64,000 bases of DNA from a virus (IMGVR_UViG_3300046167_000554:89515-153514); one strand, 5' to 3'; counted from the first letter of the stretch, positions 3-19,813 are shown. Numbers and translations: made by a program. The notes: a model not told the origin generated them from the sequence alone.

Positions 3-2738
3 GTAGTTTCATCAGAGGTATCTGCAACTTCTAATGGTTCATGGAGTGGAGACCCATCACAAGGTGGTGAATGGGTAGCAGGACTTGAGATTACTAGAGA
101 GATTACAGAGACACCTGAAATACAAACAAGAACAGGTGTAACTACAAGTGTTGTAGAAGATATTGTTGAAACAAGAAACGATAGAATTGTAAGTGTTGCA
201 CTTATACCTTTCATTCGTTCAAGAACGATTGAGATTGATGCAACAAACTTGAAACCAAATTCAAACCATTACTTCTACTTCGATAATATTGCAGTAGACA
301 AATATGTTAGACCACATAGTGCAACATATTCACAAGACAGTGGTGTAACAACAACATCATATTGTAAAACAGATGGTAATGGTAGACTTAGAGCATTCTT
401 TACAATACCTAATAATGATACAGAAAGGTTCCCAACAGGACAAAGAGAGTTAAGAGTAACATCTTCTTTCTATAACCTAAGTAACCCTGCGTCTAATGGT
501 AGTGGAATGTATCAAGCACAAGGATTATTGCAATCATCACAAACAGAGATTACTGCTACAAGAAATGGTAGAGTTATTCTTGACAGAGTTAGGGGTGAGA
601 GAACAATTAATAGAAGAGGTGAAAGACTTGCAACATCAACATTTGATGAGAATGCACCACCAATACCAGTTGACCAAACACCACCAATTCTTGACCCAAT
701 TGATGAGTTACCACCAGTACCACCTAGAGGGCCACAATTACCACCACCACCGCCACCGCCACCACCAATCGTGCCACCAATATTACCACCAGTAATTGAT
801 AGACCAGTGCCGATAGAACTACCAATCATAATAGACGATAGGGGCCCTAATGTCAGAGACTTCGTGTTAGTACCTGATGGAAGGTTTGTGAGTTCAAGAT
901 TAGAAAGAGGTTGGGGTGACCCACTTGCACAATCATTCTTGGTTGAAGCAGCGGGTGGAATGATGATGTCATCAATAGACATATTCTTCCAATCAAAAGA
1001 CGCTAACTTACCAGTATCAGTAGATATAAGAAACATGGTAAATGGATATCCTGGCCAGACAATATTACCATTCTCAACAGTGACTAAAAATCCTGAAGAT
1101 GTTAATGTCTCAGAAGATGGTGCAACTGCAACAACATTTACATTTGACTCACCAGTTCTTCTAGAAGAAGATTGTGAATATTGTTTCGTAGTATACTCAA
1201 ACTCAAATGAATATGAGTGTTTCATATCTAGAATGGGTGAAACAGACCTTGCAACAAGTCAAACAATTAGTGGACAACCATACGCAGGTTCGTTGTTTAT
1301 GTCTCAGAATGCATCCACATGGACTGCAGAACAGACTGATGACCTCAAGTTTAACATGAAGATTGCTAAATTTGATACATCTAAAACCCCTGTATTATAC
1401 TTTGAAAATAATGACTTGTCAAGTGCAAAATTACAAGAGAGTCCAATAGAAACATTTAGTGGACAAACATATGTTAAGGTATACAACTATATGCATGGTA
1501 TGTACAACACTGCATCTAATGTAACACTTTCGGGTGTAACAGGAGATAAGACAGGTTGTGTTATGACTATAGGAACACCTAGTGTAACAGGAACACCTAA
1601 TAATGGAACCTTTACGGGTAAAGCATCAACAGGTGGAACAGGAACAGGATTGACATTCGATATAACTGTAGTTGACAATGCAATAACAAGTTGTACAATT
1701 GCAACTACTGGAAGTGGATATACAGCTGCAGACTCAATCACTATTACAGATTTTGATGGTGCAACTACAGCTGATGCAACTGTAACAGTAAGTACTGTTG
1801 AAGACACATTAGGTGGAATACCAGTTAATGCAATTAACAAAACATTTACTACAATTGCAAATATGGGTATCGACTCATTCACTGTAGTACCCGACTTGTC
1901 ACCATATAACCTTAAAACAAGTTATGCATCTGATGACTCAACATTGGGTGGTGGTGCAAATGTAATGTCAACACGAAACTATTACTTTGATGCAATTCAT
2001 ACAATGATACCAAATGTTCAATTAAAGAACACTAATATCTTTGTTGCAGTTAAGACAACCCCTATGAATTCACCTGAAGGGTCAATCAGTGGAACAGTAT
2101 ATTCTAGAAGAACAAGTTCAGAGTTTATAACACTGAATGATAACGTGTTCTTTGATTCACCAAGTATTATTGCATCTCCAATTAATGAAGTAAGTGAAAT
2201 GTCAAGTACTAAATCATTTGAATGTGCAGTACAATTACAATCATACAACCCTAATTTATCCCCAATTATTGATACAGGGTCTATTGGTGCAATTGCAATT
2301 GCAAACAGACTAAACAACATAGATACCAGTGCAGATGTACCTACAGGAACCACGTATGTGAGTTCTAACGAACCCGAAGGAGATAACAATGCAATGGTGT
2401 ACGTCACACGTAAGGTGAACCTTAAAACACCTGCTAGTTCAATTAGAGTAACAGCAGATGTCTTTAGACCACCTACAACAGATGTGAAGTTTATGTATAA
2501 GATTATTAAGAACGATGAAGACACACCATTAGATGATATCGGTTTCTCATACTTTAATACAGATGGTTCACCCGATATATCAACAGAAGCAGATGCAAGA
2601 AACTTTAAAGAATATGAATTCACTGCAGATGATTTGCCTGAGTTTAGTTCATTCATTATTAAAATCGTAGGACAAGGAGAAAGTACATCAGTAGTACCAT
2701 TGGTATCTGCATTGAGATGTATTGCACTTGCAACGTAA
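3..2738 (+). CDS. Large baseplate/virion structural protein (VrlC/DUF4815-like), 5'-truncated by window edge
   Basis: Frame is open from nt 3. C-terminal 'DPLAQSF...SIDIFFQSKD..LPVSVDIR..NGYP' and 'SQNASTWTA.QT.DLKF' blocks resemble large structural proteins of marine T4-like phages. Poly-Pro insert at ~655-830. Confidence 0.7.
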   Translation, partial: VVSSEVSATSNGSWSGDPSQGGEWVAGLEITREITETPEIQTRTGVTTSVVEDIVETRNDRIVSVALIPFIRSRTIEIDATNLKPNSNHYFYFDNIAVDKYVRPHSATYSQDSGVTTTSYCKTDGNGRLRAFFTIPNNDTERFPTGQRELRVTSSFYNLSNPASNGSGMYQAQGLLQSSQTEITATRNGRVILDRVRGERTINRRGERLATSTFDENAPPIPVDQTPPILDPIDELPPVPPRGPQLPPPPPPPPPIVPPILPPVIDRPVPIELPIIIDDRGPNVRDFVLVPDGRFVSSRLERGWGDPLAQSFLVEAAGGMMMSSIDIFFQSKDANLPVSVDIRNMVNGYPGQTILPFSTVTKNPEDVNVSEDGATATTFTFDSPVLLEEDCEYCFVVYSNSNEYECFISRMGETDLATSQTISGQPYAGSLFMSQNASTWTAEQTDDLKFNMKIAKFDTSKTPVLYFENNDLSSAKLQESPIETFSGQTYVKVYNYMHGMYNTASNVTLSGVTGDKTGCVMTIGTPSVTGTPNNGTFTGKASTGGTGTGLTFDITVVDNAITSCTIATTGSGYTAADSITITDFDGATTADATVTVSTVEDTLGGIPVNAINKTFTTIANMGIDSFTVVPDLSPYNLKTSYASDDSTLGGGANVMSTRNYYFDAIHTMIPNVQLKNTNIFVAVKTTPMNSPEGSISGTVYSRRTSSEFITLNDNVFFDSPSIIASPINEVSEMSSTKSFECAVQLQSYNPNLSPIIDTGSIGAIAIANRLNNIDTSADVPTGTTYVSSNEPEGDNNAMVYVTRKVNLKTPASSIRVTADVFRPPTTDVKFMYKIIKNDEDTPLDDIGFSYFNTDGSPDISTEADARNFKEYEFTADDLPEFSSFIIKIVGQGESTSVVPLVSALRCIALAT

Positions 2739-2944
2739 TGGGAGTAAAGGTAGACGGACACTCAAAACTAGAACGAGATGAGAGTTCACACGCAATAGTT
2801 AATACTGATATGGAACAGTATAGACTTGCAAAGAAACGAAAAGAAGTATTTCATAATCAAAAAAATGAAATAAATACATTAAAGGAAGAAGTATCTGAAA
2901 TAAAAGGACTTCTTCAGAATATTTTAGGAAAATTAAATGGCTAA
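2738..2944 (+). CDS. Small conserved T4-like hypothetical protein with coiled-coil C-terminus
   Basis: ATG overlaps the upstream TAA; MGVKVDGHSKLERD...SHAIVNTD. Confidence 0.7.
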   Translation: MGVKVDGHSKLERDESSHAIVNTDMEQYRLAKKRKEVFHNQKNEINTLKEEVSEIKGLLQNILGKLNG

Positions 2945-4190
2945 GACTGTAGACACATTCAGTACTATTGAAGACTTCAGAGTCAGGTATAACGAACTTG
3001 CAACTGATGTCGGAGATAAGTCGGGACTAAGAACTCAACAAACGGGTACTATTATTGATGCTGTAAATTCTATAGAAGATAAATCATTCTTCTTCCAAGA
3101 GTTTATTTACAATGTAACATCATCACAAACAGTATTCAATGGAGACGATGCATTTGATAATTCCTTACTTTTCAGAAGAGATAGAATTCAAGTATTCCAT
3201 ATAGATGGTGGAGTAAGTAAACACTTACTAGAGGGTAATGACTACTCTATTGCATCACCTGATGGAAATCTTCATAAAGAAATTCAATTAAACGTAGCTG
3301 CAGAAAGTGGAGATAAACTAGTTGTTTACTCATTCACTGGTTCTTACTTAGGAACTGTTTCAAGTGGAACAGGTGCAGTTGGATACTTCTCAGAAACATC
3401 TGCAAACACAATCTATAATAACAATGATAGTGGAATAATTTTAAATGGAACTTCAGTAGGAAGAACTACAGCACTTGAATCAGGTTATGAAATACAATTA
3501 GCAGGTGAAACATACGTAGAAGATAACGTAACACTTGCAACAAGTAAGACACTTACTGCACCTACTTTGACTACAGGTGGTGCATCTATTACAGGAACAA
3601 CTGGAACAGGATTTACAAACATAACATCCACATTGTTTAGTGGTAATGTTAATGGTACAACTGCAACCTTATCGGGTACAGTTACTGGTGGTTCTTTAAC
3701 AGATGGTACTTTAACTTCTACAGGTGGTACTATTACTGGTGCAGCTTCTATTACATCTACAAAATTCGTAGGTGATGTCTATAAGGATGATGGAACCACA
3801 AAGATTTTAGAAAACTCAACGGGTGCATTGACTGGTACAGTATCTAGTTTATCAAACCATGATACCGATGACCTTTCAGAAGGTACTGCAAAATTCTTTA
3901 CTGATGCAAGAGCAAGAAGTGCAATTAGTGTTGGTGGAGATTTAACATATAATAGTAGTACAGGTGTGATTTCCTTTACTCAAACTGAAGGTGATATCAC
4001 TGCAATTACTACAAATAGTAGTAGTGGTTTGTCAGGTGGAGTCACAGTAGGAGCAGCTTCTTTGTCTGTAAATACATCGAATGGTGTGAAAAAAGTAAGT
4101 AATAATGTAGTTTTAGATTATGAGACTGTAAGTTCTGCACCAAGTAGTGTTGGTTCAACTTCAACTGGTCACTTATGGTTTGTGATATGA
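2937..4190 (+). CDS. Tail fibre-like structural protein
   Basis: T/G/S-rich, 'DTDDLSEG..KFFTDARAR' fibre repeat, C-terminal 'SSAPSS..STGHLWFVI'. Confidence 0.65.
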   Translation: MAKTVDTFSTIEDFRVRYNELATDVGDKSGLRTQQTGTIIDAVNSIEDKSFFFQEFIYNVTSSQTVFNGDDAFDNSLLFRRDRIQVFHIDGGVSKHLLEGNDYSIASPDGNLHKEIQLNVAAESGDKLVVYSFTGSYLGTVSSGTGAVGYFSETSANTIYNNNDSGIILNGTSVGRTTALESGYEIQLAGETYVEDNVTLATSKTLTAPTLTTGGASITGTTGTGFTNITSTLFSGNVNGTTATLSGTVTGGSLTDGTLTSTGGTITGAASITSTKFVGDVYKDDGTTKILENSTGALTGTVSSLSNHDTDDLSEGTAKFFTDARARSAISVGGDLTYNSSTGVISFTQTEGDITAITTNSSSGLSGGVTVGAASLSVNTSNGVKKVSNNVVLDYETVSSAPSSVGSTSTGHLWFVI

Positions 4191-4191
4191 T

Positions 4192-5499
4192 ATGTCAGAC
4201 GAAATATATTTAAATACTGGTACAACGATACAACAGCCCTATCAAGCGCAAGGGCCTGCTAACGCACAACAACCCGTTATTGCACAACAGGTTAGAAACT
4301 ATACTGCTAATGCAAGACAACCTAGTGAGTATCAGACTCGTACACCATTTACATATAGAAATCCAAGTAATGCACGTCAACCTAGTATAAGGAATACACA
4401 AAGTCCCTTTACATATGCAAGACAAGGTCAATCACCATTTACGTATAACTTTAGGTCACCTAGTACATATACAAGACAGGGTCAAACACCATTTACATAC
4501 AGTCATAGACAACCTATAACATATGCAAGACAGGGTCAAACACCATTTACGTATGATTATCAGTCACCTTCAACATATAGAACCCCTGTAAATCAACAAG
4601 AACCTAATATAAGGAGTAAACAATCTCCTTTTACATATGGTCATCCAGCAGCTGCCCAATCACCTTTTACATATAACTATAGAAGTCCGTTTACGTATCA
4701 AAGAACTGGTCAGTCACCATTTACATATCAAGCAACTGGGACAACACCAGTGATATACAGTTACCAACAACCTTTTCCGTATATTGCAAATGGACAGCAA
4801 CCAAACATAAGGAATGCACAACAACCATATCCATATAGTACTACACAAGCATCTTCCCATCAGCAACCAAATTTAGCAAGTGGAAGACAACCTTACATAT
4901 ATGCAGCGTACACTTATCACAATACTGGTTCTACAGGAACTACTGCCCCAGTATATCAAATAGATGTTAGTTCACAAGACCAAAATGATGCGAATGCTTA
5001 TATTTGGGTTAAAACTGTAGGAAGTAATTTAGAAGTATATGTATCTGCAAACTTCGACAATTATGCTGACTTTACATCAACAAGTGGTGGCAGTGGGACT
5101 ATAAGTACTAACACTAATTATAAAGTTGCAACATTGGTAGATGGAGCTGGGTATAAAGTAAGATATACAGCAGGTAGTTACTATAATATAACACAAGAGG
5201 GTGGTGAACCTACAGTAATAGGATTAGTACTAGCAAGTAATGTTCCAAACTCAACCAGTACAACTGGTGGTGTTACTATAGGAACAAACTCACTTTGGGG
5301 GTCAGGTAGTGTTCATTATGTACGTTCTAGAGTTCGTGCTTTGCCAGATGAAGGATTTGAAGGAATCGGAAGTGCTGGTGCGTCTGTAGATATAAATCTA
5401 TTCTTTGATAAAACAGGAGCTACAACTATCTCATACCCAATTTCAATGATGTGTGAAACAGATTTCCCTGAAGAGGAAGAAGAGGAAGAAGGAGTATAA
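4192..5499 (+). CDS. Pro-punctuated repeat protein A (repeat arm plus C-terminal globular domain); partner of 5503
   Basis: PFTY/PNIR/PYPY units at 4273-4890, then a non-repetitive ~200 aa domain and acidic tail FPEEEEEEEGV. Confidence 0.8.
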   Translation: MSDEIYLNTGTTIQQPYQAQGPANAQQPVIAQQVRNYTANARQPSEYQTRTPFTYRNPSNARQPSIRNTQSPFTYARQGQSPFTYNFRSPSTYTRQGQTPFTYSHRQPITYARQGQTPFTYDYQSPSTYRTPVNQQEPNIRSKQSPFTYGHPAAAQSPFTYNYRSPFTYQRTGQSPFTYQATGTTPVIYSYQQPFPYIANGQQPNIRNAQQPYPYSTTQASSHQQPNLASGRQPYIYAAYTYHNTGSTGTTAPVYQIDVSSQDQNDANAYIWVKTVGSNLEVYVSANFDNYADFTSTSGGSGTISTNTNYKVATLVDGAGYKVRYTAGSYYNITQEGGEPTVIGLVLASNVPNSTSTTGGVTIGTNSLWGSGSVHYVRSRVRALPDEGFEGIGSAGASVDINLFFDKTGATTISYPISMMCETDFPEEEEEEEGV

Positions 5500-5502
5500 A
5501 CC

Positions 5503-6324
5503 ATGCCTACAGGACAACAGCCATATATATACCAACACCAAATCGTGTTCCAACAGGTAACTATTACTGAGCTTCAAGGACAGTCTCCTTTTACTTATCA
5601 ACATCAGTCTCCTTTTACTTATCAAAATTCAGGAAGAAATCCTATTGCTAATGTATCTGCACAACAACCTTTTCCGTATATTGCAAATGGACAGCAACCT
5701 TATCCATATATTGCAAATGGACAAGAACCAAACATAAGGAATGCACAACAACAGTTCTTTTATCAAGACCAAAGGAATGCAAGACAACCTATTATCTATC
5801 AACATAGGTCTCCACTTACATATAGAAATCCTGTTAATGCACAAAATCCTATAAGTGGAGTTAATGCACAACAACCTTACCCTTACATTGCAAATGGTCA
5901 AAGTCCATATATTGCAGATGCACAACAACCATATCCGTATACTGCAAATGCACAAAATCCAAGTATCGAATCTGCACAACAACCTTATCCATATATTGCA
6001 AATGCAAGAAACCCTAGTACATATCAACATAGGTCTCCACTTACGTATAGGAATCCTGTATCGGGTCAACAACCTCATATTGTAAATAAACAATCACCAT
6101 TTTTCTATACAGGTTCTTACCAAGTAGCGTATGCATATAGAAGTCCATTCATTGCACAAGTGCAACAACCCTCAACTAGACCTGTAGGCCCAGTTGCAAA
6201 AGTAAAAGGAATATACCGAAATAATAACGGAACTGTAGAGAAAGTAAACCAAGTATATGTAAATGATGGTGGTTCTTTAGAAAAAATTCATCAATCTGTA
6301 CCTACTGCTCAGTTTCAGAAATAA
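5503..6324 (+). CDS. Pro-punctuated repeat protein B; antiparallel complement of A
   Basis: Repeat units at 5521-6144; C-terminal 'VKGIYRNNNG..VNQVYVNDGG' adaptor-like motif. Confidence 0.8.
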   Translation: MPTGQQPYIYQHQIVFQQVTITELQGQSPFTYQHQSPFTYQNSGRNPIANVSAQQPFPYIANGQQPYPYIANGQEPNIRNAQQQFFYQDQRNARQPIIYQHRSPLTYRNPVNAQNPISGVNAQQPYPYIANGQSPYIADAQQPYPYTANAQNPSIESAQQPYPYIANARNPSTYQHRSPLTYRNPVSGQQPHIVNKQSPFFYTGSYQVAYAYRSPFIAQVQQPSTRPVGPVAKVKGIYRNNNGTVEKVNQVYVNDGGSLEKIHQSVPTAQFQK

Positions 6325-6342: not shown

Positions 6343-6675
6343 ATGGCTATACTTGCAAACTTATTCATCGACCAAGGCACCGACTTTTCTATTACTGTAG
6401 ATGTAACAGATAGTAATGGTGAAATTTTAAATATGTCAGGATATTCTTCTGCTGGTCAAATTAGAAAGACTTATGAGTCTTCAACAGTAAGTGCAACATT
6501 CACCACTTCTATATCTGCAGCTGCTGGTCAAGTTACCTTATCTTTAAATGATACAGTAACATCAGCATTAGGTGCTGGAAGATATGTTTATGACCTAAAC
6601 GTCACATCAAGTGGTGGAGTTACAACAAGAGTAGTTGAAGGACAAGCAATTGTAACGCCAGGTGTAACGAGGTAA
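6343..6675 (+). CDS. Conserved Ig-like virion protein
   Basis: 'NLFIDQGTDFS...GRYVYDL...RVVEG..IVTPGVT' pattern typical of T4-like structural regions. Confidence 0.7.
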   Translation: MAILANLFIDQGTDFSITVDVTDSNGEILNMSGYSSAGQIRKTYESSTVSATFTTSISAAAGQVTLSLNDTVTSALGAGRYVYDLNVTSSGGVTTRVVEGQAIVTPGVTR

Positions 6676-6678
6676 ATC

Positions 6679-6918
6679 ATGGCAATAAAAGGAACATTAA
6701 GTAGAGTAGCAACCATAGGTGGTAGAGTCGCAGGTGCAACCAATGTCCGTGCAAAACAAGTAGCAATCGGAACTGGTGCTGGTGCAGACCTTTCTGCAAA
6801 ATCAATCAACGACCTTGCAGACGTAACTGCATCTGAAACAGATGACGGACTCTTATCATATGATGCAACATCAGATAAATGGACTACGACTACAGTTTTA
6901 GATGGTGGAACATTCTAA
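6679..6918 (+). CDS. Short fibre-associated protein ending LDGGTF
   Basis: 'INDLADV..DGLLSYD...KW' motif; DGGTF C-terminus shared with neighbours. Confidence 0.65.
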   Translation: MAIKGTLSRVATIGGRVAGATNVRAKQVAIGTGAGADLSAKSINDLADVTASETDDGLLSYDATSDKWTTTTVLDGGTF

Positions 6919-9549: not shown

Positions 9550-9960
9550 ATGGCAAAATCAAATGCATTTAAAATCGCAGAGTTAATAAGAGTCTTCTCT
9601 TACGATTCATCTGCTGATGTTATCACTACTTCTAAAGAACTAGATACTAAACATAGAACTTCAAGTTCTTTGACAACAACTGCAACTACAGAGGTAAATT
9701 TAGATACCTTTGCTCATGCTTCATATAGAGCAGCGAGATACATTGTAGCAATGTCAAGTGGTTCGGATTTCCATTCCACAGAAATAGTATTAGTACATGA
9801 CGGAAGTGCAGTGACGATGACACAGTATGGTACACTTAAATCTGCCTCTTTGGCATCATTTGATTCAGATATTTCTGGAACAGATGCGAGATTAAGAATA
9901 ACTCCAGCGTCAAGCAGTTCTACAGTAATTAATATTCATAGAGTATTAGTTTCAGCGTAA
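9550..9960 (+). CDS. Structural protein with 'YRAARY...EIVLVHDG...TQYG' domain
   Basis: Paralogous to the C-termini of 8709 and 10059. Confidence 0.65.
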   Translation: MAKSNAFKIAELIRVFSYDSSADVITTSKELDTKHRTSSSLTTTATTEVNLDTFAHASYRAARYIVAMSSGSDFHSTEIVLVHDGSAVTMTQYGTLKSASLASFDSDISGTDARLRITPASSSSTVINIHRVLVSA

Positions 9961-9980
9961 AACTTCTTTATATTATACGG

Positions 9981-10008
9981 AAAGGGGAACTTCGGTTCCC
10001 CTTTTTTT
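9981..10008 (+). terminator. Rho-independent terminator
   Basis: GGGGAAC-TTCG-GTTCCCC followed by T7. Confidence 0.9.
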
Positions 10009-10028
10009 GTTCTTTATTTCTCAAATGT

Positions 10029-10036
10029 TATAAATA
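10029..10036 (+). promoter_or_regulatory. Late promoter TATAAATA
   Basis: Exact consensus upstream of ATG 10059. Confidence 0.75.
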
Positions 10037-10058
10037 GTATAACACAAGAGATTCTTTT

Positions 10059-10896
10059 ATGGCAACAAAATCTAAATTTTATGCAGACCTAGGATTAGAA
10101 TCAGCAAGTAATTTGCAAGTTGATGGTAATGCAACCATTACAGGTGATTTAACAGTTAACGGTACAACGGTAACAGTTAATTCTTCCCCAAACTTCAGTA
10201 GCTGATTCAATGTTAGAACTTGCAAACGGCAATACATCTTCAGATACACTAGATATTGGGTTCTATGGTAATTACGATGATGGATTATCAGACAGTGGTG
10301 CTACAGAATTTACAGGTCTATTCAGAGATGCAACAGATTCCACATGGAAATTATTTGATGGTCTTGAAGTAGAACCCTGGTTCAACTGTTAATATAACAG
10401 GAACAGGATATGCACTTGCAGACATACTCGTAGGAGATTTAACTGCAACAACTATCACTGCAACTAATAGTATCACAGGTGCTTTCTATTGTTTTCCCAA
10501 CATCAGATGGTACAAGTGGTCAGGCAATAGTCACAAATGGTTCAGGAACCCTTATCCTTTGCAACAGTATCAGGTGGTTTAGACGGTGGAACTATAACAA
10601 CTACATCAACAACTGCAACTACAATGGATAGTTTTGCAATAGGAACATATAGAAGTGCAAAATATCAAGTCTCTATATCAGATTCTACTAGTGGAGACTA
10701 TCAACATACAGAAGTCTCAGTAGTTCATGACGGAACTAGTGCATACTTTACCCAATACGGAACAATAACAACAGATACAAGTGAATTAGCTACTTTCGGA
10801 GTAGACATAAACATAAATACCCTTAGAATCAGAGTCACATCTGCCTCAGCAAATTCAACTGTATATAAATTTAAAAAAATACTTGTAGATATCTAA
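10059..10896 (+). CDS. Tail fibre-associated protein, broken by apparent frameshift errors
   Basis: MATKSKFYADLG... continues through fragments 10210-10392 and 10537-10896 with motifs homologous to 7067, 8709 and 9550. Confidence 0.6.
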
Positions 10897-10926
10897 AAAA
10901 AGTGCGTGCCGAGAGGACACACTTAT

Positions 10927-13258: not shown

Positions 13259-14356
13259 ATGGCATCAGGTTCACAAAAAGTAAAAACACCAACAGGTTGG
13301 AATTCAACCCAAGGTGCATGGGTAAAGACAGGTTCTTCCACATGGAAAGCAGTCGACCAAATTTATGTTAAAACACCTACAGGGTGGAATGATGCATCAG
13401 GTCAAGAATTAACTCAAATACCTTATCCGTATATTGCAAATGCACAAGAACCAAACATAAGGGATGCACAACAACCTTATCCGTATATTGCAAATGCACA
13501 AGAACCAAACATAAGGGATGCACAACAACCATACCCTTACATTGCAAATAATCAGCAACCAAACATAAGGGATGCACAACAACCTTATCCTTATATAGCG
13601 AACGCAAGACAACCTTCTACATATCAACATAGAAGTCCATTTACTTACAGAAACCCAAGTAATGCAAGACAACCTAGTACGTATCAACATAGAAGTCCAT
13701 TTACGTATCAAAGAACTGGTCAAACACCTTTCACATATCAATATAGAAGTCCATTTACGTATGCTAGACAAGGTCAAACACCATTTACGTATAACTATAG
13801 GTCACCTAGTACGTATGCAAGACAGGGTCAAACACCATTTACGTATAACTTTAGGTCACCTAGTACGTATGCAAGACAAGGTCAAACACCTTTCACATAC
13901 CAGTATAGAAGTCCCTTTACATATGCAAGACAGGGTCAAACACCATTTACGTATAACTATAGGTCTCCGTTCACTTACAGGAACCCTGTATCTGCACAAC
14001 AACCTACTATTAAGAATGCACAGCAACCTACTATTAAGAGTGCTCAGCAACCTAATATAAGGTCAGCACAACAACCTAATATAAGGTCAGCACAAGAACC
14101 AAATATTAGGAATGCAAGACAACCAAATAACGCACAGAATCCATTTACGTTCCAAAACCCGTTTACATTCAATGCAAGACAACCAAACAATGCAAGACAA
14201 CCAAACAATGCAAGACAACCGAATAATGCAAGACAACCAAACAATGCAAGAAGTCCAAGTATTGCTCAACAGCCAGGCTCATATATCGCATACTTCCAAC
14301 AATCATATTTCTTTACATTTGGAAGTCCAAGTCAGTTCCCTGGCGAGGAACCTTAA
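13259..14356 (+). CDS. Pro-punctuated repeat protein C; partner of 14367
   Basis: N-terminal 'VKTPTGW..AWVKTG..WK..IYVKTPTGW' adaptor motif; 35 repeat units at 13421-14254. Confidence 0.85.
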   Translation: MASGSQKVKTPTGWNSTQGAWVKTGSSTWKAVDQIYVKTPTGWNDASGQELTQIPYPYIANAQEPNIRDAQQPYPYIANAQEPNIRDAQQPYPYIANNQQPNIRDAQQPYPYIANARQPSTYQHRSPFTYRNPSNARQPSTYQHRSPFTYQRTGQTPFTYQYRSPFTYARQGQTPFTYNYRSPSTYARQGQTPFTYNFRSPSTYARQGQTPFTYQYRSPFTYARQGQTPFTYNYRSPFTYRNPVSAQQPTIKNAQQPTIKSAQQPNIRSAQQPNIRSAQEPNIRNARQPNNAQNPFTFQNPFTFNARQPNNARQPNNARQPNNARQPNNARSPSIAQQPGSYIAYFQQSYFFTFGSPSQFPGEEP

Positions 14357-14366
14357 GGAGTAAATT

Positions 14367-15329
14367 ATGCCAATTGGATTTAGAGTCATACCATATCACG
14401 CACATGCAAGGACTTCTGTTAATGTACAGACGCCGTTCACTTTTCAAGCACCATTCACGTTTCAGGCACCCTTTACGTTTCAGGCACCTTTTACGTTTCA
14501 GAACCCGTTCATTGCACAAGCAAGACAACCGAATAATGCAAGACAACCTTTTACGTTTCAGAACCCATTTACGTACAATTATAGAAGTCCTTATACGTAC
14601 AACCATAGGTCACCATTTACGTACCAACATAGAAGTCCTTTTACGTATCAACATAGAAGTCCTTTTACGTATCAACATAGGTCACCATTTACGTACAGAA
14701 GTCCTGTATCTGCAAGAGAACCAAACATAAGGTCAGCACAACAACCTTATCCGTATATTGCATCTGCACAAGAACCAAACATAAGGTCGGCACAACAACC
14801 TTATCCGTATATTGCTAACAATCAACAACCTACGATTAAGAATGCACAACAACCTTATCCGTATATTGCTAACAATCAACAACCTAATATAAGGAATGCT
14901 CAACAACCTTATCCGTATATTGCAAATGCACAAGAACCTAATATTAGGTCAGCACAGCAACCTTATCCGTATATTGCTAATGCACAAGAACCTAATATTA
15001 GAAACAATCAAGCACCATTTACATACCAAAACCCTGTAAATGGACAAGAACCTAATATTAGAAACGCTCAGACTCCGTTTACGTATCAAAGAACTGGTCA
15101 AACACCATTTACTTACCAGTATAGAAGTCCTTCTACTTATGCAAGACAGGGTCAGACTCCGTTTACGTATCAACATAGAAGTCCGTTCACATATCAAAGA
15201 ACTGGTCAGACTCCATTTACGTATCAACATAGAAGTCCATTCACGTATGCAAGACAGGGTCAAACCCCCGAAGCAAGATGGGATGGAGTTGGTTCACAAC
15301 AGTGGCCTGCAACACCTATTAGTGGATAG
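14367..15329 (+). CDS. Pro-punctuated repeat protein D; antiparallel complement of C
   Basis: SD AAGGAG; 35 repeat units at 14433-15266. Confidence 0.85.
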   Translation: MPIGFRVIPYHAHARTSVNVQTPFTFQAPFTFQAPFTFQAPFTFQNPFIAQARQPNNARQPFTFQNPFTYNYRSPYTYNHRSPFTYQHRSPFTYQHRSPFTYQHRSPFTYRSPVSAREPNIRSAQQPYPYIASAQEPNIRSAQQPYPYIANNQQPTIKNAQQPYPYIANNQQPNIRNAQQPYPYIANAQEPNIRSAQQPYPYIANAQEPNIRNNQAPFTYQNPVNGQEPNIRNAQTPFTYQRTGQTPFTYQYRSPSTYARQGQTPFTYQHRSPFTYQRTGQTPFTYQHRSPFTYARQGQTPEARWDGVGSQQWPATPISG

Positions 15330-15388: not shown

Positions 15389-16963
15389 ATGGAACATATT
15401 GAATCATTAGAAGACCTAAAACAGGTAGTAAAACCAAATCAAAACTATAGGGAAAAATCTTTCCATATTGGTAATTTCGATTTAAAAAGAGAAAAGACTG
15501 AAAAAGAAGAAGAGACTTTAAGTATGTTAGAGTACCTTTTTAATGAAATATGTCCACCATTAAAATATTTCACTTGGGGTGATTTTTTAGAACAAAGAAA
15601 GAAAGACAAATTTACGGGTTTCAATGGTTTACAGAACCAATCTTCTACCTACCACTACTTCTTACCACATGGTTATACTGCAGAGGTAAGACCCGAAAAG
15701 GTGACAAGAGGTCATGCTGGTATGGATATGAAGAATTTAGAAGGCTATATTGATATTAGAGACATTGCAAATTGGGAAGTTATTGAAGGTGGAAAGGATA
15801 AAGACCATCCACATGCATATGAAAGTCTTTCCTCAATGTATTACCATAGTGCAAAAGCACATTGGATTATACAAGACATCCAAAAGAATGGACTAATACA
15901 TCCTATTCAAGGTATAACAAAGGAAAGTGGAGACAAGTTTGGATTTGCAATTCATCCAGGCTCTGTTCGTTCAGGATGTTTTGAAGAGATGGAAGACCCA
16001 TCTATGGAAGTAATGATATGGGACAAACATGATGTCATTACTGGTATTGAACCAATGACATTAAATGATGCACTTGAGTTTTGGAAAAATAGATTAGAAG
16101 AACAGGATGCAGATGTATACAACGTATCCTTTATGTTCAATGAAGGTCATTTAGAGTTCCAACACGACCTATCTAATTTAAATTTCAGACCAAAGGTACA
16201 TGAGTTCAATAAGAAGGTACATGAACTTTCCAAAGGTAAACCCATCAATATTTACATTGGATATGATAGTAGACACACTACATTACCTGAAATTAATAAA
16301 CATTCTATACTCACCAGTATTAAAAGGGGTCTAGGTAATGGTTGGTTTCATGACCAAGTCAGATGGGAACCTGAGATTAAGTTCCTTGACAAATCTAAAA
16401 TTCCCGAGTATAATAGAGAGTATGCAAATCAATCTACTGAGTTTACATATAGTAGATTTCTAATTCCTTACCTAGAAAACTATGAAGGGTTTAGTATATT
16501 CTTAGATGATGATTTCATCTTTGAGAAAAGTATACTACCAATGTTCTATTATCTAAATCCTGATGATGCAGTTGCATGTGTAAAGTATCCACATTACGAA
16601 CATGATACAACTAAATTTGATGGAGAAGTCAACATAGATTATCCATGTAAGTTGTGGTCAAGTCTAATGGTGTTTAATAATGGACATGAAGATTGCAAGA
16701 AACTAACACCCGAAGTTGTTAACACTTGGACTGGAAAACAGTTACATCAGTTTGAGTGGACAGATAAGATTAGTGAGATACCTCAAAAATATGTCTTTGT
16801 AGAGGGTTATGATGACCCCAAAGAGAAGTGGGATTTTACTGCAATTCACTATACAAGAGGTGGCCCATGGGTAGAAGGTATGGATTTTAGTGGTATAAAT
16901 AATTTGGAACACTATAATAAGTGGTTAAACAAACATAAGAACGAGGTAATTAATAATGAATAG
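15389..16963 (+). CDS. Unknown N-terminal domain fused to a GT-A glycosyltransferase
   Basis: C-terminal half has IYIGYDSR, STEFTYSRFLIPYL, DDD (DxD), WSSLMVFN and HYTRGGPW motifs. Confidence 0.75.
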   Translation: MEHIESLEDLKQVVKPNQNYREKSFHIGNFDLKREKTEKEEETLSMLEYLFNEICPPLKYFTWGDFLEQRKKDKFTGFNGLQNQSSTYHYFLPHGYTAEVRPEKVTRGHAGMDMKNLEGYIDIRDIANWEVIEGGKDKDHPHAYESLSSMYYHSAKAHWIIQDIQKNGLIHPIQGITKESGDKFGFAIHPGSVRSGCFEEMEDPSMEVMIWDKHDVITGIEPMTLNDALEFWKNRLEEQDADVYNVSFMFNEGHLEFQHDLSNLNFRPKVHEFNKKVHELSKGKPINIYIGYDSRHTTLPEINKHSILTSIKRGLGNGWFHDQVRWEPEIKFLDKSKIPEYNREYANQSTEFTYSRFLIPYLENYEGFSIFLDDDFIFEKSILPMFYYLNPDDAVACVKYPHYEHDTTKFDGEVNIDYPCKLWSSLMVFNNGHEDCKKLTPEVVNTWTGKQLHQFEWTDKISEIPQKYVFVEGYDDPKEKWDFTAIHYTRGGPWVEGMDFSGINNLEHYNKWLNKHKNEVINNE

Positions 16964-17513
16964 TTTAGTATATACAGAAGAGAGTAAGTTAATAGTTGAA
17001 AAACCTAATGGGTTAAAGTATGAATTTGATAATGTTGATGCTCCTGATTTAGGATTTGAGTATGATATGGTTGTCTATGATGACATAGAAGTCAAAGTTT
17101 TAAAGTGGGATGATGAGAAGGGTGACTTCAATTCACAAGATAAGATACCATTAACAAACGAAGAGAAGGATGCAATTGAAACTTACATTGCAAACTCTGA
17201 ACCACCTATTGGATGGAACCTGAACAATCAATATCTACAACAAATAAATGAAATTTGTCATCAATATGTTGATGATTGTTCTGAAAAGTATGGTTTTCAA
17301 AATCATATAGAGTGTACATATGTAGGAAGAGAGGGGTCAGCACATCCTTACAGAAGTAATGCAAAACGTGTACTAGAATATGCAGATGCAGTATGGTGTA
17401 TCTATGTACAGATTGCAGATGAAATTCAATCTACAAGAGAAGATTTATTAAAATCTATAGATGAATACCTTCAAGTTTTACCCGAAGCACAACAAGCTAG
17501 CTCCCGATTCTAG
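16956..17513 (+). CDS. Hypothetical protein, possibly tail-fibre-assembly chaperone-like
   Basis: Acidic ORF translationally coupled to the upstream gene; function is inference. Confidence 0.5.
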   Translation: MNSLVYTEESKLIVEKPNGLKYEFDNVDAPDLGFEYDMVVYDDIEVKVLKWDDEKGDFNSQDKIPLTNEEKDAIETYIANSEPPIGWNLNNQYLQQINEICHQYVDDCSEKYGFQNHIECTYVGREGSAHPYRSNAKRVLEYADAVWCIYVQIADEIQSTREDLLKSIDEYLQVLPEAQQASSRF

Positions 17514-17534
17514 ACAACAGTAAAAAGGTTTTCA

Positions 17535-18260
17535 GTGAAGATACATTATGTAACTGAACCATTCAAGTTATCAGAAATACCTTTAAAGGATGTTTATGTC
17601 TTTGATGATTTCTTATCTTCAGAAATGCATCGTGCAATAGATTCACATATATATCGTTCAAGTATATGGTCTAAGACAAATCAAGTTAGAGGAGATAGTC
17701 CTACTGGGTTAGCACATCATAGTTTTTGGGGTGCAACATATTTTCGTGGAGTAGAAGGTGGAAGTAAGAAAGTAGTTGATAATGATATGAATCCAAGGGA
17801 TACTTATCTTGCACAATGGTTTAATAGAAAGATACAAACCGACTTTGGATTTCAGTGGGTCAGATTTCAATACATGGGACTGAATTCACAAACACAAGGT
17901 CTTCAAGGAACAACACATGCAGATTGTTCACCTGAAGATGAGTGGAATCTTTCATTTCTTTACTATACCAATAAATTTTGGAATAAGGAATGGGGTGGTT
18001 CATTGAGATTTTACGATGAAATGCAACAAGGAATTGATGGTAGAGATGAACATATTAAAAATCATCAAATTGGTGAAGTAGAGTTTAAACCCAACAGACT
18101 GTTAATGTTTGACGGAAGAATTCCACATGGTGCAGATGCACCTTCTCCTAAAGCAAGATATATGGATAGAAAATCCATTGTTCTTAGAGGAGACGAAATA
18201 AGATTAATAAAAGATACAAGTGAGTGGTTTCATGCCAACGATAGAATTTACAACATTTAA
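17535..18260 (+). CDS. 2OG-Fe(II) oxygenase (prolyl-hydroxylase-like)
   Basis: HAD...LYY..W..EWGG.L.F...PNRLLMFDGRIPH...R facial-triad pattern. Confidence 0.8.
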   Translation: MKIHYVTEPFKLSEIPLKDVYVFDDFLSSEMHRAIDSHIYRSSIWSKTNQVRGDSPTGLAHHSFWGATYFRGVEGGSKKVVDNDMNPRDTYLAQWFNRKIQTDFGFQWVRFQYMGLNSQTQGLQGTTHADCSPEDEWNLSFLYYTNKFWNKEWGGSLRFYDEMQQGIDGRDEHIKNHQIGEVEFKPNRLLMFDGRIPHGADAPSPKARYMDRKSIVLRGDEIRLIKDTSEWFHANDRIYNI

Positions 18261-19116
18261 TACAAAAACACTAGAGGACTTTAGGCCTGTTCTTGCTAAG
18301 AAACTTACACCTGAGTGGTGGAAAAAAACTAAAGTTAATGTTGATGTACGAGGACATAAAGTGCAAACTATACGTTCTTGTCCTGCTATGGATGATTGGT
18401 TAAAGAGTGGTTGGTTGTTAACTGCAAATAGAGACATACATGTAGATTTAGAGACTGGTTCTGATAGTACTTTTAAGACAAGAGCTCATAATGGGTATGG
18501 TTCTCCATCTCATCCTAATGTGCAGACTGCAAATGCATTTGAATACTTAGGAGATTCAGGCCCTGTTAAGGATGCATTCAAAATGAAGAATCCATGGAAC
18601 ATAATAACTCCAAAGGGGTATTCATGTTTTTACTTAGACCCATTCTTATTTCAAAATGAATACTTTGCAACATGGCAAGGTATAATAGATACTGATAACT
18701 TTAATAAAAATATTGATAATGCACAAATCATATTCTACCCTAAAGTAACTCACTCATTTACTATAACAAAGGGTACTCCTCTTTGTCAAGTAATACCATT
18801 CAAAAGGGAGACTTGGAATGCATCTTACATTGTACAGGACTCACAAACCTTTACAGAGAATAGGTCTATAGTTACCTCTCATCATGATAACGAGTTTCCT
18901 ACTATGGACGAGATGGGTAGACATAAGGGTCTATCGGAAGAGGAAAGAAAGATAACTGGTAAGATGGGTGCATATAGAAAACAAGGATACTGGCAAGAGA
19001 AAGGTAAAAACTTTAAACAAGATAATCCACCACCTGAATGTCCTATGCATGTGGTCAGTGAAGACACACCTGAAATTCAATTAGAACTTCCAATAGGAGA
19101 CAATAATGGCAGTTAG
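18220..19116 (+). CDS. Conserved phage protein found with oxygenase clusters (DUF6065-like)
   Basis: 'TIRSCPAM.D...GW', 'NPWNIITPKGYSC', 'KGTPLCQVIPFKRE'. Confidence 0.55.
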   Translation: MSGFMPTIEFTTFNTKTLEDFRPVLAKKLTPEWWKKTKVNVDVRGHKVQTIRSCPAMDDWLKSGWLLTANRDIHVDLETGSDSTFKTRAHNGYGSPSHPNVQTANAFEYLGDSGPVKDAFKMKNPWNIITPKGYSCFYLDPFLFQNEYFATWQGIIDTDNFNKNIDNAQIIFYPKVTHSFTITKGTPLCQVIPFKRETWNASYIVQDSQTFTENRSIVTSHHDNEFPTMDEMGRHKGLSEEERKITGKMGAYRKQGYWQEKGKNFKQDNPPPECPMHVVSEDTPEIQLELPIGDNNGS

Positions 19117-19813
19117 ATTACTATTTCCTACCTTTATATTTGAAGTAGATTTACTTAATGATGATTTACATCCTAATGATGGACTCACTAAAGAGTACCT
19201 AAATCTATTAAAAGATACTATGGATGGAATGAGACAAAGAGACCCCGAAGGACGAAGAATATCTAATGCATATACTGGGTGGCAATCCAACGATGGTTGT
19301 GAAACAAATCCAATATTTGCACAACTACATAAAAAGATATCACGAGTCTTTCAGAGAGAGGTTATTCCATTTCATGGTTTGGACTCATCAAATGCAGTCA
19401 TGCAAATGGGTAATATGTGGGCAAACATAAACGATTTTAGTGCATGGAACAAACCACATTTACATAATGGGTGTTGGTATAGTGGTGCATTCTATATCCA
19501 TGCAGATGGAGACGAAGGTTCTTTAGATATTATAGATAAAGACTGTAAGGTCGTATCAGACTTTCCACATTCAACTAGAACACCTACATCTTATAGTATT
19601 CAACCTACATCAGGAAAGTTAGTGTTGTTCCCTAGTGGTACTATGCATATGGTAGAACCTAACATGACAAACAAAGAACGTTATTCAGTTGCATTTAATA
19701 TTGAAATGAGATATCAGACTAATGAAGGTAGATATCCAATAAATGAAGATACTTACAATGGGGACGAATTTAAATTTGAAATAGACCCTAATGGAGACCC
19801 CATACTGAAGTAG
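19106..19813 (+). CDS. Putative 2OG-Fe(II) oxygenase (TIGR02466-like)
   Basis: LFPT..., WANIN....N.PH.H...YSGAFY, G.LVLFPS..MH.V.PN....RYSVAFN. Confidence 0.8.
   Translation: MAVRLLFPTFIFEVDLLNDDLHPNDGLTKEYLNLLKDTMDGMRQRDPEGRRISNAYTGWQSNDGCETNPIFAQLHKKISRVFQREVIPFHGLDSSNAVMQMGNMWANINDFSAWNKPHLHNGCWYSGAFYIHADGDEGSLDIIDKDCKVVSDFPHSTRTPTSYSIQPTSGKLVLFPSGTMHMVEPNMTNKERYSVAFNIEMRYQTNEGRYPINEDTYNGDEFKFEIDPNGDPILK

What the first reader, a model, noticed from the sequence alone, without database searches (positions are those of the whole stretch)
4192..6324. A second, independent pair obeys the same pairing code with a different message
Seen in sequence: A (units 4273-4890, 206 aa) reversed aligns with B (5521-6144, 208 aa) over 24 units. 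Examples: PNIRNAQQ/PFTYQHQS, PFPYIANGQQ/PFTYQNSGRN, PFTYQRTGQS/PYPYIANGQE, PVNQQE/PLTYRN, PSNARQ/PLTYRN. Irregular units also match in length: 16-mer PVIAQQVRNYTANARQ faces 16-mer PFFYTGSYQVAYAYRS, and a 14-mer faces a 14-mer. Units that have lost the Pro keep their length (QFFYQD, QRNARQ). There are only two 1-residue bulges (9 vs 8). The repeats are more degenerate than in C/D and the order differs, so this replicates the rule internally. It argues for selection on inter-chain register rather than a recent duplication.
Basis: partly seen in the sequence, partly recalled or inferred. Interest (0 to 1): 0.9.

Follow-up and report, generated by a model that had tools for sequence, protein, structure and literature searches.

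The report
Mirror-image paired phage fibre proteins
Two neighbouring genes of an uncultured marine T4-like phage encode proline-punctuated repeat chains whose repeat order in one is the exact mirror, with complementary repeat types, of the other, which points to a previously undescribed fibre built from two chains zipped together head-to-tail by a sequence-encoded pairing code.

Summary
A (4192-5499) and B (5503-6324) consist of Pro-initiated units of 6, 8 or 10 residues. A read backwards matches B unit for unit over 24 units, with two 8-versus-9 exceptions, and every facing pair is of opposite class: PxTY-type against PNIR/PYIAN/PxNA-type. I trained a complementarity matrix only on the other pair class from 36 unrelated viral contigs. 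With it, A aligns to reversed B over 197 columns with 2 gaps (z about 17-19 against unit-order shuffles); the forward alignment scores nothing.

The same rule holds in 54 distinct adjacent gene pairs, 19 of them perfect (up to 68/68 units), and 94% of facing units are of opposite class. Orthologues show compensated indels at facing positions. Natural single-chain fusions fold the two arms into one polypeptide at the same genomic slot. Covariation between facing units is confined to even positions and runs antiparallel.

My best reading is an in-register antiparallel two-chain beta zipper that forms a ~65 nm fibre stalk in the phage's host-recognition cluster. AF2 and ESMFold2 gave no usable model, so the fold is inferred. 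I found no family, isolate or paper that describes it. First-stage notes of this scan already flagged this stretch and the C/D pair on the same DNA.

The parts
4192..5499 (+). Gene A (435 aa): X chain of the A/B pair
   Evidence: ORF. No Pfam or PHROG family. Orthologues of 433-436 aa, and of 580-581 aa with a Hint extension.
4192..4272 (+). A N-terminal conserved segment (aa 1-27, MSDEIYLN...QQPYQ.Q)
   Evidence: Conserved at 47-77% identity in the X chains of 15 other A/B-type loci. Also forms the N-terminus of the single-chain fused forms.
4273..4890 (+). A repeat arm (aa 28-233, 24 Pro-delimited units)
   Evidence: Tokenisation. Aligns antiparallel to the B arm.
4948..5499 (+). A C-terminal all-beta domain (aa ~253-435) ending in PEEEEEEEGV; proposed distal tip
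   Evidence: AF2 pLDDT 70.5, pTM 0.70, ten strands. No significant PDB match. Only 11 homologues. It occupies the place of the inter-arm insert of the fused forms.
5489..5494 (+). AAGGAG Shine-Dalgarno sequence for B, inside the last codons of A; A's stop TAA is at 5497-5499, then ACC, then B's ATG at 5503 (same frame)
   Evidence: Sequence read. The same AAGGAG lies before D.
5503..6324 (+). Gene B (273 aa): Y chain of the A/B pair
   Evidence: ORF. Orthologues at 96% and 87% identity.
5521..6144 (+). B repeat arm (aa 7-214, 24 units, two of them 9-mers = proposed beta-bulges)
   Evidence: The 9-mers are conserved in orthologue P0002.
6169..6324 (+). B C-terminal conserved ~50-aa domain (…PVAKVKGIY…EKIHQSVP…); proposed proximal/anchor end, together with the A N-terminus
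   Evidence: 47-78% identical in 16 other Y chains. Also the C-terminus of all fused forms.
13259..14356 (+). Gene C (365 aa): X chain of the sister pair
   Evidence: 35 units mirror D exactly.
14367..15329 (+). Gene D (320 aa): Y chain of the sister pair
2937..4190 (+). Fibre-like gene that precedes A/B-type pairs
   Evidence: A homologue lies upstream of the pair in 11 of the 15 other A/B-type loci. At least two of the other four have no room upstream.
6343..6918 (+). LtfC-like 110-aa gene plus 79-aa gene that always follow A/B-type pairs
   Evidence: phrog_3304 'L-shaped tail fiber protein assembly' at 1.3e-22 and a weak PF23926 hit. The 110-aa gene lies 11-30 nt downstream of Y in 15/15 loci.

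Best explanation
A and B are the two chains of one fibre stalk.

How the arms pair: the repeat arms (A 21-233, B 221-7) lie antiparallel and in register as a long two-chain beta zipper. Each Pro-delimited unit of A lies against a unit of B of the same length and the opposite class.

Why the units are even and matched (inferred): the prolines at unit boundaries face each other (register i+j = L+2) at non-hydrogen-bonded sites. That would explain why unit lengths are even and must match.

The two faces:
- The even-numbered side chains form a variable 'coding' face of large-against-small and polar pairs: Tyr4-Ala, Gly8-Tyr4, His6-Arg4, Asn/Ala6-Ala4, Ser8-Asn2, Gln/Tyr8-Tyr2.
- The odd face (Pro, Thr/Ile, Arg/Gln) is constant.

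What the code does: the order of 6-, 8- and 10-residue units, the irregular units and the two bulges set a unique register. They also distinguish the cognate partner from the second pair (C/D) made in the same cell.

The two ends:
- The conserved A N-terminus and B C-terminal domain meet at one end, probably the virion attachment.
- A's variable C-terminal beta-sandwich sits at the other end with B's N-terminus, probably the distal host-facing tip.

Size: about 197 paired residues at ~3.3 Å each would give a rod of roughly 65 nm.

Shown: the mirror order, the complementarity, the covariation, the compensated indels, the fused variants and the fibre-module context.

Inferred: the beta conformation, the Pro-Pro register, the stoichiometry (a single heterodimer or a bundle of several), and which end binds what.
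For: - Mirror order and class complementarity in A/B are far above chance.
- The rule is general. There are 54 distinct adjacent pairs, 19 with every aligned unit equal (up to 68/68). 1350 of 1431 facing equal-length units are of opposite class. Using unit lengths alone, the cognate partner ranks first in 36/54.
- Compensated changes occur. In L131 the only indel in A (2 aa at A223-224) and the only indel in B (2 aa at B14-15) face each other. An extra (10,8) unit pair in L044, and extra blocks in L058, occur in both chains at mirrored places.
- Natural fusions exist. P0012, P0008, P0123-P0130 and P0147 carry the A-type N-terminus and the B-type C-terminus in one chain. Their two arms (104-136 aa) mirror each other with 0-1 gaps. 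P0012 sits at the A+B slot in a syntenic 146-kb contig.
- Mutual information between facing units is confined to even positions and is antiparallel within the unit: T2 with N(L) and N(L-2); T6 and T8 with N2 and N4. The contingency tables are clear, for example His-Arg 134 and Asn-Ala 69.
- 95.9% of 4049 Pro-to-Pro units are even in length. Odd positions are conserved and even positions are variable.
- There is no DNA-level palindrome.
- The pair lies in the tail-fibre/baseplate module, between a fibre-like gene and an LtfC-like fibre-assembly gene. B has its own AAGGAG ribosome-binding site.
Against: - No structural or biochemical data exist. AF2 treats the fused homologue as unstructured, so the arms could be disordered on their own.
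- A free two-stranded ribbon 200 residues long has no precedent, so a higher-order bundle may be the real unit.
- Periodic (10,8)n arrays also allow partial self-pairing and cross-pairing in silico: C-C 152, D-D 149, A-D 95. Specificity is therefore relative, not absolute.
- The more diverged fused forms (P0080 and P0153 clades) do not score with this matrix.
- Sequences from related contigs are not independent, which inflates counts and MI.
Confidence: 0.68

Rival explanations
1. The same antiparallel pairing holds, but the functional unit is a bundle, for example three A·B hairpin-like pairs forming a six-stranded beta tube. This would be analogous to the out-and-back needle of the T4 gp37 tip. 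The conserved odd face would pack in the core. This is a refinement of the main reading rather than an alternative.
For: The odd positions (Pro1, Thr3/Ile3, Arg7/Gln7) are strongly conserved and do not covary. That pattern is expected if they pack against a constant symmetric partner. From general knowledge, phage fibres are usually trimeric and the upstream fibre-like genes suggest a trimeric attachment site.
Against: Nothing in the sequence gives the copy number. There are no HxH metal-binding motifs such as gp37 has (read).
Confidence: 0.3
2. A and B do not touch each other. Instead each lies along a common third scaffold, such as the trimeric fibre of the upstream gene, in opposite directions. 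Both would then copy the scaffold's spacing and so mirror each other.
For: Each pair class always follows its own fibre-like gene.
Against: - Array lengths range from about 100 to over 350 paired residues between contigs, while the upstream gene stays homologous.
- Residue-level covariation links the two chains directly.
- Opposite-class pairing is not needed for scaffold copying.
Confidence: 0.07
3. The arms are intrinsically disordered low-complexity spacers. The mirror pattern would be a by-product of repeat-array mutation, such as gene conversion or inverted duplication, with no structural meaning.
For: AF2 gives pLDDT about 30 for the arms. The arrays are DNA tandem repeats of 18, 24 and 54 nt that can slip.
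Against: - There are no inverted DNA repeats and the antisense translation is unrelated.
- Slippage in one gene cannot copy itself, mirrored and class-swapped, into the other gene.
- The rule holds in 54 different 'messages' and in compensated indels.
Confidence: 0.03

Closest known systems
Distal needle of the phage T4 long tail fibre protein gp37 (from general knowledge)
   Same: A phage fibre segment made of long beta strands that run out to the tip and back, so that N-side and C-side segments lie antiparallel. The fused homologues found here (P0012 and others) have that out-and-back topology.
   Different: gp37 is one chain in a homotrimer and uses HxH iron sites. It has no Pro-delimited units, no two-class complementarity and no split into two genes. 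No sequence similarity was seen here.
Antiparallel coiled-coil arms of SMC/Rad50/MukB proteins (from general knowledge)
   Same: Two long segments fold back antiparallel so that the conserved N- and C-terminal parts meet at one end. Interruptions in one arm are matched by interruptions at the mirrored place in the other.
   Different: Those are alpha-helical heptad repeats within one chain. Here Pro occurs every 6-10 residues and the period is 2, which excludes a coiled coil. The arms can also be separate gene products.
Tandem beta-zipper of bacterial fibronectin-binding proteins (from general knowledge)
   Same: An extended repeat chain pairs strand by strand, antiparallel, with a partner, and each repeat matches one partner module in order.
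   Different: In that case a disordered chain adds strands to folded F1 modules of a host protein. Here both partners are extended repeat chains of the same family with a reciprocal code.
Triple beta-spiral shafts of adenovirus fibre and reovirus sigma1 (from general knowledge)
   Same: Viral fibre shafts built from short repeats with conserved Pro/Gly and alternating side chains.
   Different: Those use a ~15-residue repeat in a homotrimer of one gene, running parallel. They have no partner gene and no mirror order.

Membership tests
Collagen-like triple helix | Gly at every third residue (Gly-X-Y), period 3 | tested here: not met
   Units are 6, 8 or 10 residues. 95.9% of 4049 units are even in length, and Gly is conserved only at position 8 of the 10-mers.
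Triple beta-spiral fibre shaft (adenovirus/reovirus type) | ~15-residue pseudo-repeat in a single-gene homotrimer | tested here: not met
   The repeat lengths are 6/8/10 (18 for the commonest double unit), and a second, complementary gene is required. The oligomeric state is not testable here.
Trappin/cementoin transglutaminase-substrate repeats (PF10511) | Score above the Pfam gathering threshold on the hexapeptide repeat model | tested here: not met
   A and B give no hit at E <= 0.1. Only D scores 28.1 against a cut-off of 27, on a 17-residue stretch, which I judge compositional.
Hint/intein-like autoprocessing domain | C-terminal domain with Cys1, a TxxH block and a terminal (H)N/(D)S block; Pfam Hint/Vint/Intein_splicing hits | tested here: not met
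   A has no Pfam hit and ends at ...EEEEEEEGV. Its orthologue in L131 continues for ~146 aa, with CVHES...TEDHP... read here as Hint-like. That extension itself has only a faint PF08517 (AXH) record and was not scanned here. C-type relatives P0006 and P0010 hit PF14623, PF01079 and PF14890, mostly below the gathering score.
T4 gp37-type needle | Out-and-back strands with HxH metal-binding motifs in a homotrimer | tested here: inconclusive
   An out-and-back topology is implied by the fused forms. No HxH motifs are present. Trimer state and fold are not testable here.
Antiparallel coiled coil (SMC/Rad50 type) | Heptad periodicity in long alpha helices | tested here: not met
   Pro occurs every 6-10 residues and covariation has period 2.

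The most novel reading that the evidence does not exclude
These phages use a natural, programmable beta-strand pairing code. Three unit lengths in two complementary classes, plus a variable even-face sub-code, specify both the partner and the register of two antiparallel chains. Two orthogonal zippers (A/B and C/D) can therefore assemble correctly in one cell, and arrays can grow or shrink only by compensated changes in both genes. In relatives the same stalk exists as a single-chain hairpin. In others the X chain carries a C-terminal Hint domain that could, speculatively, process the open end or ligate it.
Probability: 0.5. Interest if true: 0.92.

Novelty: categorically new. Interest (0 to 1): 0.88.

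Why it matters
If the pairing is physical, this would be a new protein architecture: a very long heteromeric beta zipper whose partner choice and register are written in a simple, readable unit code. It would be the beta-strand counterpart of heterodimeric coiled coils.

It would give structural biology a new fibre fold and give protein design a natural set of orthogonal, length-tunable beta-pairing modules. For marine virology it would provide a handle on the host-recognition cluster of abundant uncultured T4-like phages related to pelagimyophages. Metagenomes already supply dozens of naturally covarying 'messages', so the code is directly testable with recombinant arms.

Tried and rejected
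- AF2 on the natural single-chain fusion P0012 with a 15-sequence alignment gave mean pLDDT 34.5 and pTM 0.16. It is unusable, and its strands near both termini are not evidence.
- Complex prediction (ESMFold2) on A 1-252 plus B returned ipSAE 0.00: no answer, and no evidence either way.
- For the A C-terminal domain model, Foldseek against the PDB found nothing at E <= 0.001, and VIA-align wide gave a best Z of 5.1 to a de novo Ig-like protein. It is only a generic beta sandwich.
- GenBank phage isolates gave no matches. There was no DNA match and no tblastn match to the non-repetitive terminal domains. There was one weak repeat hit in a Pseudomonas phage.
- Pfam and PHROGs found no family for A or B. 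The ESM Atlas feature search returned only unnamed viral clusters at scores <= 0.86.
- A DNA-level origin is rejected. Only short chance inverted repeats were found, and tblastn of A and C against the minus strand of B and D gave at most 15 bits.
- The first-stage note that B's C-terminus and C's N-terminus share a docking motif is inconclusive. hhalign of the two family profiles gave probability 6.5% over 19 columns.
- Literature searches by motif strings and by topic found nothing that describes these proteins. The pelagimyophage paper describes the host-recognition cluster but not these genes.
- Stop-codon readthrough as the general way of joining A and B is rejected. A and B are in one frame (TAA ACC ATG), but C/D and the L131 orthologues are not, and B and D have their own AAGGAG sites.

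Full report
**Setting.** The window is the 3' 64 kb of a 153.5-kb IMG/VR viral contig. It is a marine T4-like myophage. Its major capsid protein is 66-68% identical to those of Pelagibacter phage HTVC008M and Methylophilales phage Melnitz. The finding lies in the tail-fibre/baseplate block between the VrlC-like giant protein and gp13/gp14. Published work on pelagimyophages calls this region the hypervariable 'host recognition cluster' (PMC7029224).

**The observation.** A (4192-5499, 435 aa) and B (5503-6324, 273 aa) are adjacent genes on the same strand. B has its own AAGGAG ribosome-binding site inside the end of A.

Cutting both proteins at Pro shows units of almost only 6, 8 or 10 residues. 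A residues 28-233 read backwards give the same 24 unit lengths as B residues 7-214. The exceptions are two places where B has 9 and A has 8.

Every facing pair is of opposite class:
- a 'T' unit (P-x-T-Y..., for example PFTYQHRS, PFTYxRxGQT, PFTYRN);
- against an 'N' unit (PNIRNAQQ, PYPYIANxQx, PxNARQ).

A token-free test supports them. I derived a facing-residue log-odds matrix from other contigs. With it, A aligns to reversed B over 197 columns with only the two 1-residue gaps, scoring 133. The forward score is 15, and a null of shuffled unit order gives 35 +/- 6 (z = 16.8). A matrix trained only on the other pair class (C/D-type, 36 loci) gives 131 and z = 19.3.

**Generality.** A scan of IMG/VR for the PYPYIAN codon pattern returned more than 116 loci. 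Genes rich in such units almost always come as adjacent same-strand pairs.
- Among 54 distinct pairs, the reversed unit-length strings match far better than the forward strings.
- 19 pairs match at every aligned unit: 68/68, 59/59, 55/55, 44/44 and so on.
- Of 1431 facing equal-length units, 1350 are T against N.
- From unit lengths alone, the cognate partner ranks first among 54 in 36 cases.
- 95.9% of 4049 Pro-to-Pro units are even in length.

There are two pair classes, each with its own conserved ends and neighbours.
- A/B-type: the X chain has the N-terminus MSDEIY.N, and the Y chain has a C-terminal ~50-aa domain. A homologue of the 417-aa fibre-like gene lies upstream in 11 of 15 loci. 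A 110-aa LtfC-like gene follows within 11-30 nt in all 15.
- C/D-type: the X chain has a 54-aa N-terminal domain. The pair is preceded by a homologue of the 541-aa fibre gene.
- Wherever the locus reaches far enough downstream, a C/D-type pair is followed within 28-240 nt by a GT8-like protein. A 185-aa protein, a P4H-like 2OG oxygenase, a 298-aa protein and a second 2OG oxygenase come after it.

An exhaustive HMMER search finds 182 clusters at 50% identity, all from metagenomes. GenBank phage isolates have none.

(i) In 16 A/B-type pairs the cognate Y is the best of 16 for 11 X chains. Alignments run 103-313 columns and are nearly always gapless.

(ii) The closest orthologous pair (L131, about 87-90% identical) differs from A/B by exactly one indel in each repeat arm:
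- A loses 2 aa at residues 223-224;
- B loses 2 aa at residues 14-15;
- under the mirror map (i+j = 240) these positions are within 2 residues of facing each other.

(iii) Among C/D relatives, L044 has one extra (10,8) double unit in X and one at the mirrored place in Y. L058 differs from L017 by an extra block and a 6-to-8 change, both mirrored exactly.

(iv) In the two genomes where both pair classes are in hand, only cognate combinations align gaplessly over their full length.

The arrays are DNA tandem repeats of 18, 24 and 54 nt that can slip, so the balance between the two genes must be maintained by selection.

**Not a nucleic-acid effect.** There are no inverted DNA repeats beyond short chance matches. 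The antisense translation of B or D resembles nothing in A or C.

**Single-chain forms.** Homologues of B include proteins of 445-545 aa. These start with the A-type N-terminus and end with the B-type C-terminal domain. In P0008, P0012, P0123-P0130 and P0147, an N-side arm and a C-side arm of 104-136 residues mirror each other with 0-1 gaps. A ~130-residue insert separates the arms. P0012 occupies exactly the A+B slot in a syntenic 146-kb contig.

So the two arms can be one hairpin-like chain. The conserved N- and C-termini lie together at one end. The variable part lies at the other end: the insert in fused forms, or A's C-terminal domain in split forms.

More diverged fused clades do not score with my matrix. 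Their arms may use a different or degenerate code.

**Geometry inferred from covariation.** I computed mutual information over distinct T/N facing unit pairs. It is essentially confined to even positions of both units and is antiparallel within the unit:
- T2 covaries with N(L) and N(L-2);
- T6 and T8 covary with N2 and N4;
- the anti-diagonal i+j = L+2 is highest for the 8-mers and 6-mers, while for the 10-mers i+j = L scores slightly higher.

The contingency tables are clean:
- His6-Arg4 (134), Asn6-Ala4 (69), Ala6-Ala4 (51);
- Ser8-Asn2 (153), Gln8-Tyr2 (69);
- in the 6-mers, Phe4 faces Asn2 and Tyr4 faces Val/Ala/Ser2.

In that register, Pro faces Pro. The invariant Tyr4 of T units faces the conserved Ala at L-2 of N units. 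The conserved Gly8 of T 10-mers faces Tyr4 of PYPYIAN. Odd positions are conserved and even positions are variable.

Period-2 covariation, even unit lengths and Pro-opposite-Pro are what an in-register antiparallel beta ribbon would give, with the prolines at non-hydrogen-bonded sites. This step is inference from established beta-sheet geometry, not a result. The two 9-mers of B would be single-residue bulges. They are conserved in the orthologue.

**Structure prediction did not help.**
- AF2 on the fused P0012 gave pLDDT 34.5.
- ESMFold2 on A+B gave no answer.
- A's C-terminal domain folds as an all-beta sandwich (pLDDT 70.5) with no convincing solved relative and only 11 homologues. This is consistent with a fast-evolving tip.

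**Explanation.** A and B most likely form an antiparallel, in-register two-chain beta zipper, the stalk of a fibre about 65 nm long. The conserved A N-terminus and B C-terminal domain would form the attachment end. A's C-terminal domain would form the distal end. Unit lengths and classes, irregular units and bulges encode register and partner choice. C/D is a second, orthogonal zipper in the same phage.

The copy number is open. A bundle of several pairs, as in the T4 gp37 needle, would explain the conserved odd face. I put 0.68 on direct antiparallel pairing and about 0.5 on the specific Pro-Pro beta-ribbon geometry.

**Comparison with known systems.** No Pfam or PHROG family matches. D's marginal Cementoin hit is compositional.
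- The architecture is not collagen (the period is 2, not 3).
- It is not a triple beta-spiral: the repeat differs and a partner gene is needed.
- It is not a coiled coil, because Pro occurs every 6-10 residues.
- It works most like an out-and-back beta needle (gp37) and, conceptually, like the mirrored antiparallel arms of SMC/Rad50, but in beta form and split over two genes.

I found no description of it in the literature I could search.

**Earlier notes.** First-stage notes of this scan had already flagged this stretch, the C/D pair, the coupled repeat expansion and the downstream oxygenase/glycosyltransferase cassette on the same DNA. I tested the first three directly and the last partly.

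Noticed in passing
L131:1256-3001 (orthologue of A); proteins P0006, P0009, P0010, P0019, P0035; compare window 5461-5499: Some X chains of both pair classes carry a C-terminal Hint/intein-like domain (Cys1 after a Gly run or after the poly-Glu tail, a TGGHP/TEDHP block, and a terminal VHN/VDS plus a short tail). Window A stops exactly where the Hint domain of its 581-aa orthologue begins. X's C-terminus is predicted to lie next to Y's N-terminus (conserved Met-Pro). Self-cleavage, or even ligation of the open hairpin end, is conceivable but untested.
   Followed up: partly
window 15389-19813; same order in L128 and in the C/D-type loci: Every C/D-type pair whose locus reaches far enough downstream is followed within 28-240 nt by a conserved cassette. 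The cassette is a GT8-like protein (weak PF01501), a 185-aa protein, a P4H-like 2OG-Fe(II) oxygenase (PF13640), a 298-aa protein and a second 2OG oxygenase (PF13759). The Pro-rich units are an obvious candidate substrate for hydroxylation or glycosylation. The evidence is synteny only.
   Followed up: partly
window 5497-5505: A and B are in the same reading frame, separated only by TAA ACC. Readthrough of one stop would therefore make a single hairpin chain with A's C-terminal domain at the turn. This is not general: C/D and the L131 orthologues are in different frames.
   Followed up: yes
window 4210-4431, 5629-6093, 13409-13777, 14949-15263 (minus strand): Long antisense ORFs run through the repeat arrays. 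Their translations are Cys/Leu/Ile/Arg-rich periodic strings. They look like by-products of the periodic codon composition rather than genes.
   Followed up: no
window 9960-10900: A fibre-like coding region seems to be spread over three overlapping frames (ORFs 10210-10392, 10479-10631, 10537-10896). The last piece matches baseplate-wedge/tail-fibre-connector PHROGs. It may be a frameshifted or mis-assembled fibre gene.
   Followed up: no
window 3-2738: The C-terminal part of the VrlC-like giant structural protein (phrog_358; DUF4815 in the syntenic contig L125) contains a run of ten prolines within a Pro-rich linker.
   Followed up: no
window 13259-13420 and 6169-6324: C's N-terminal 54-aa domain (two PTGWN...K.V.QIYVK half-repeats) is 70-100% conserved across 35 loci, although the arrays differ widely. 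In three loci (L019, L095, L097) it sits on the second gene, meaning the gene order is swapped. Its similarity to B's C-terminal domain is weak (hhalign probability 6.5%).
   Followed up: partly
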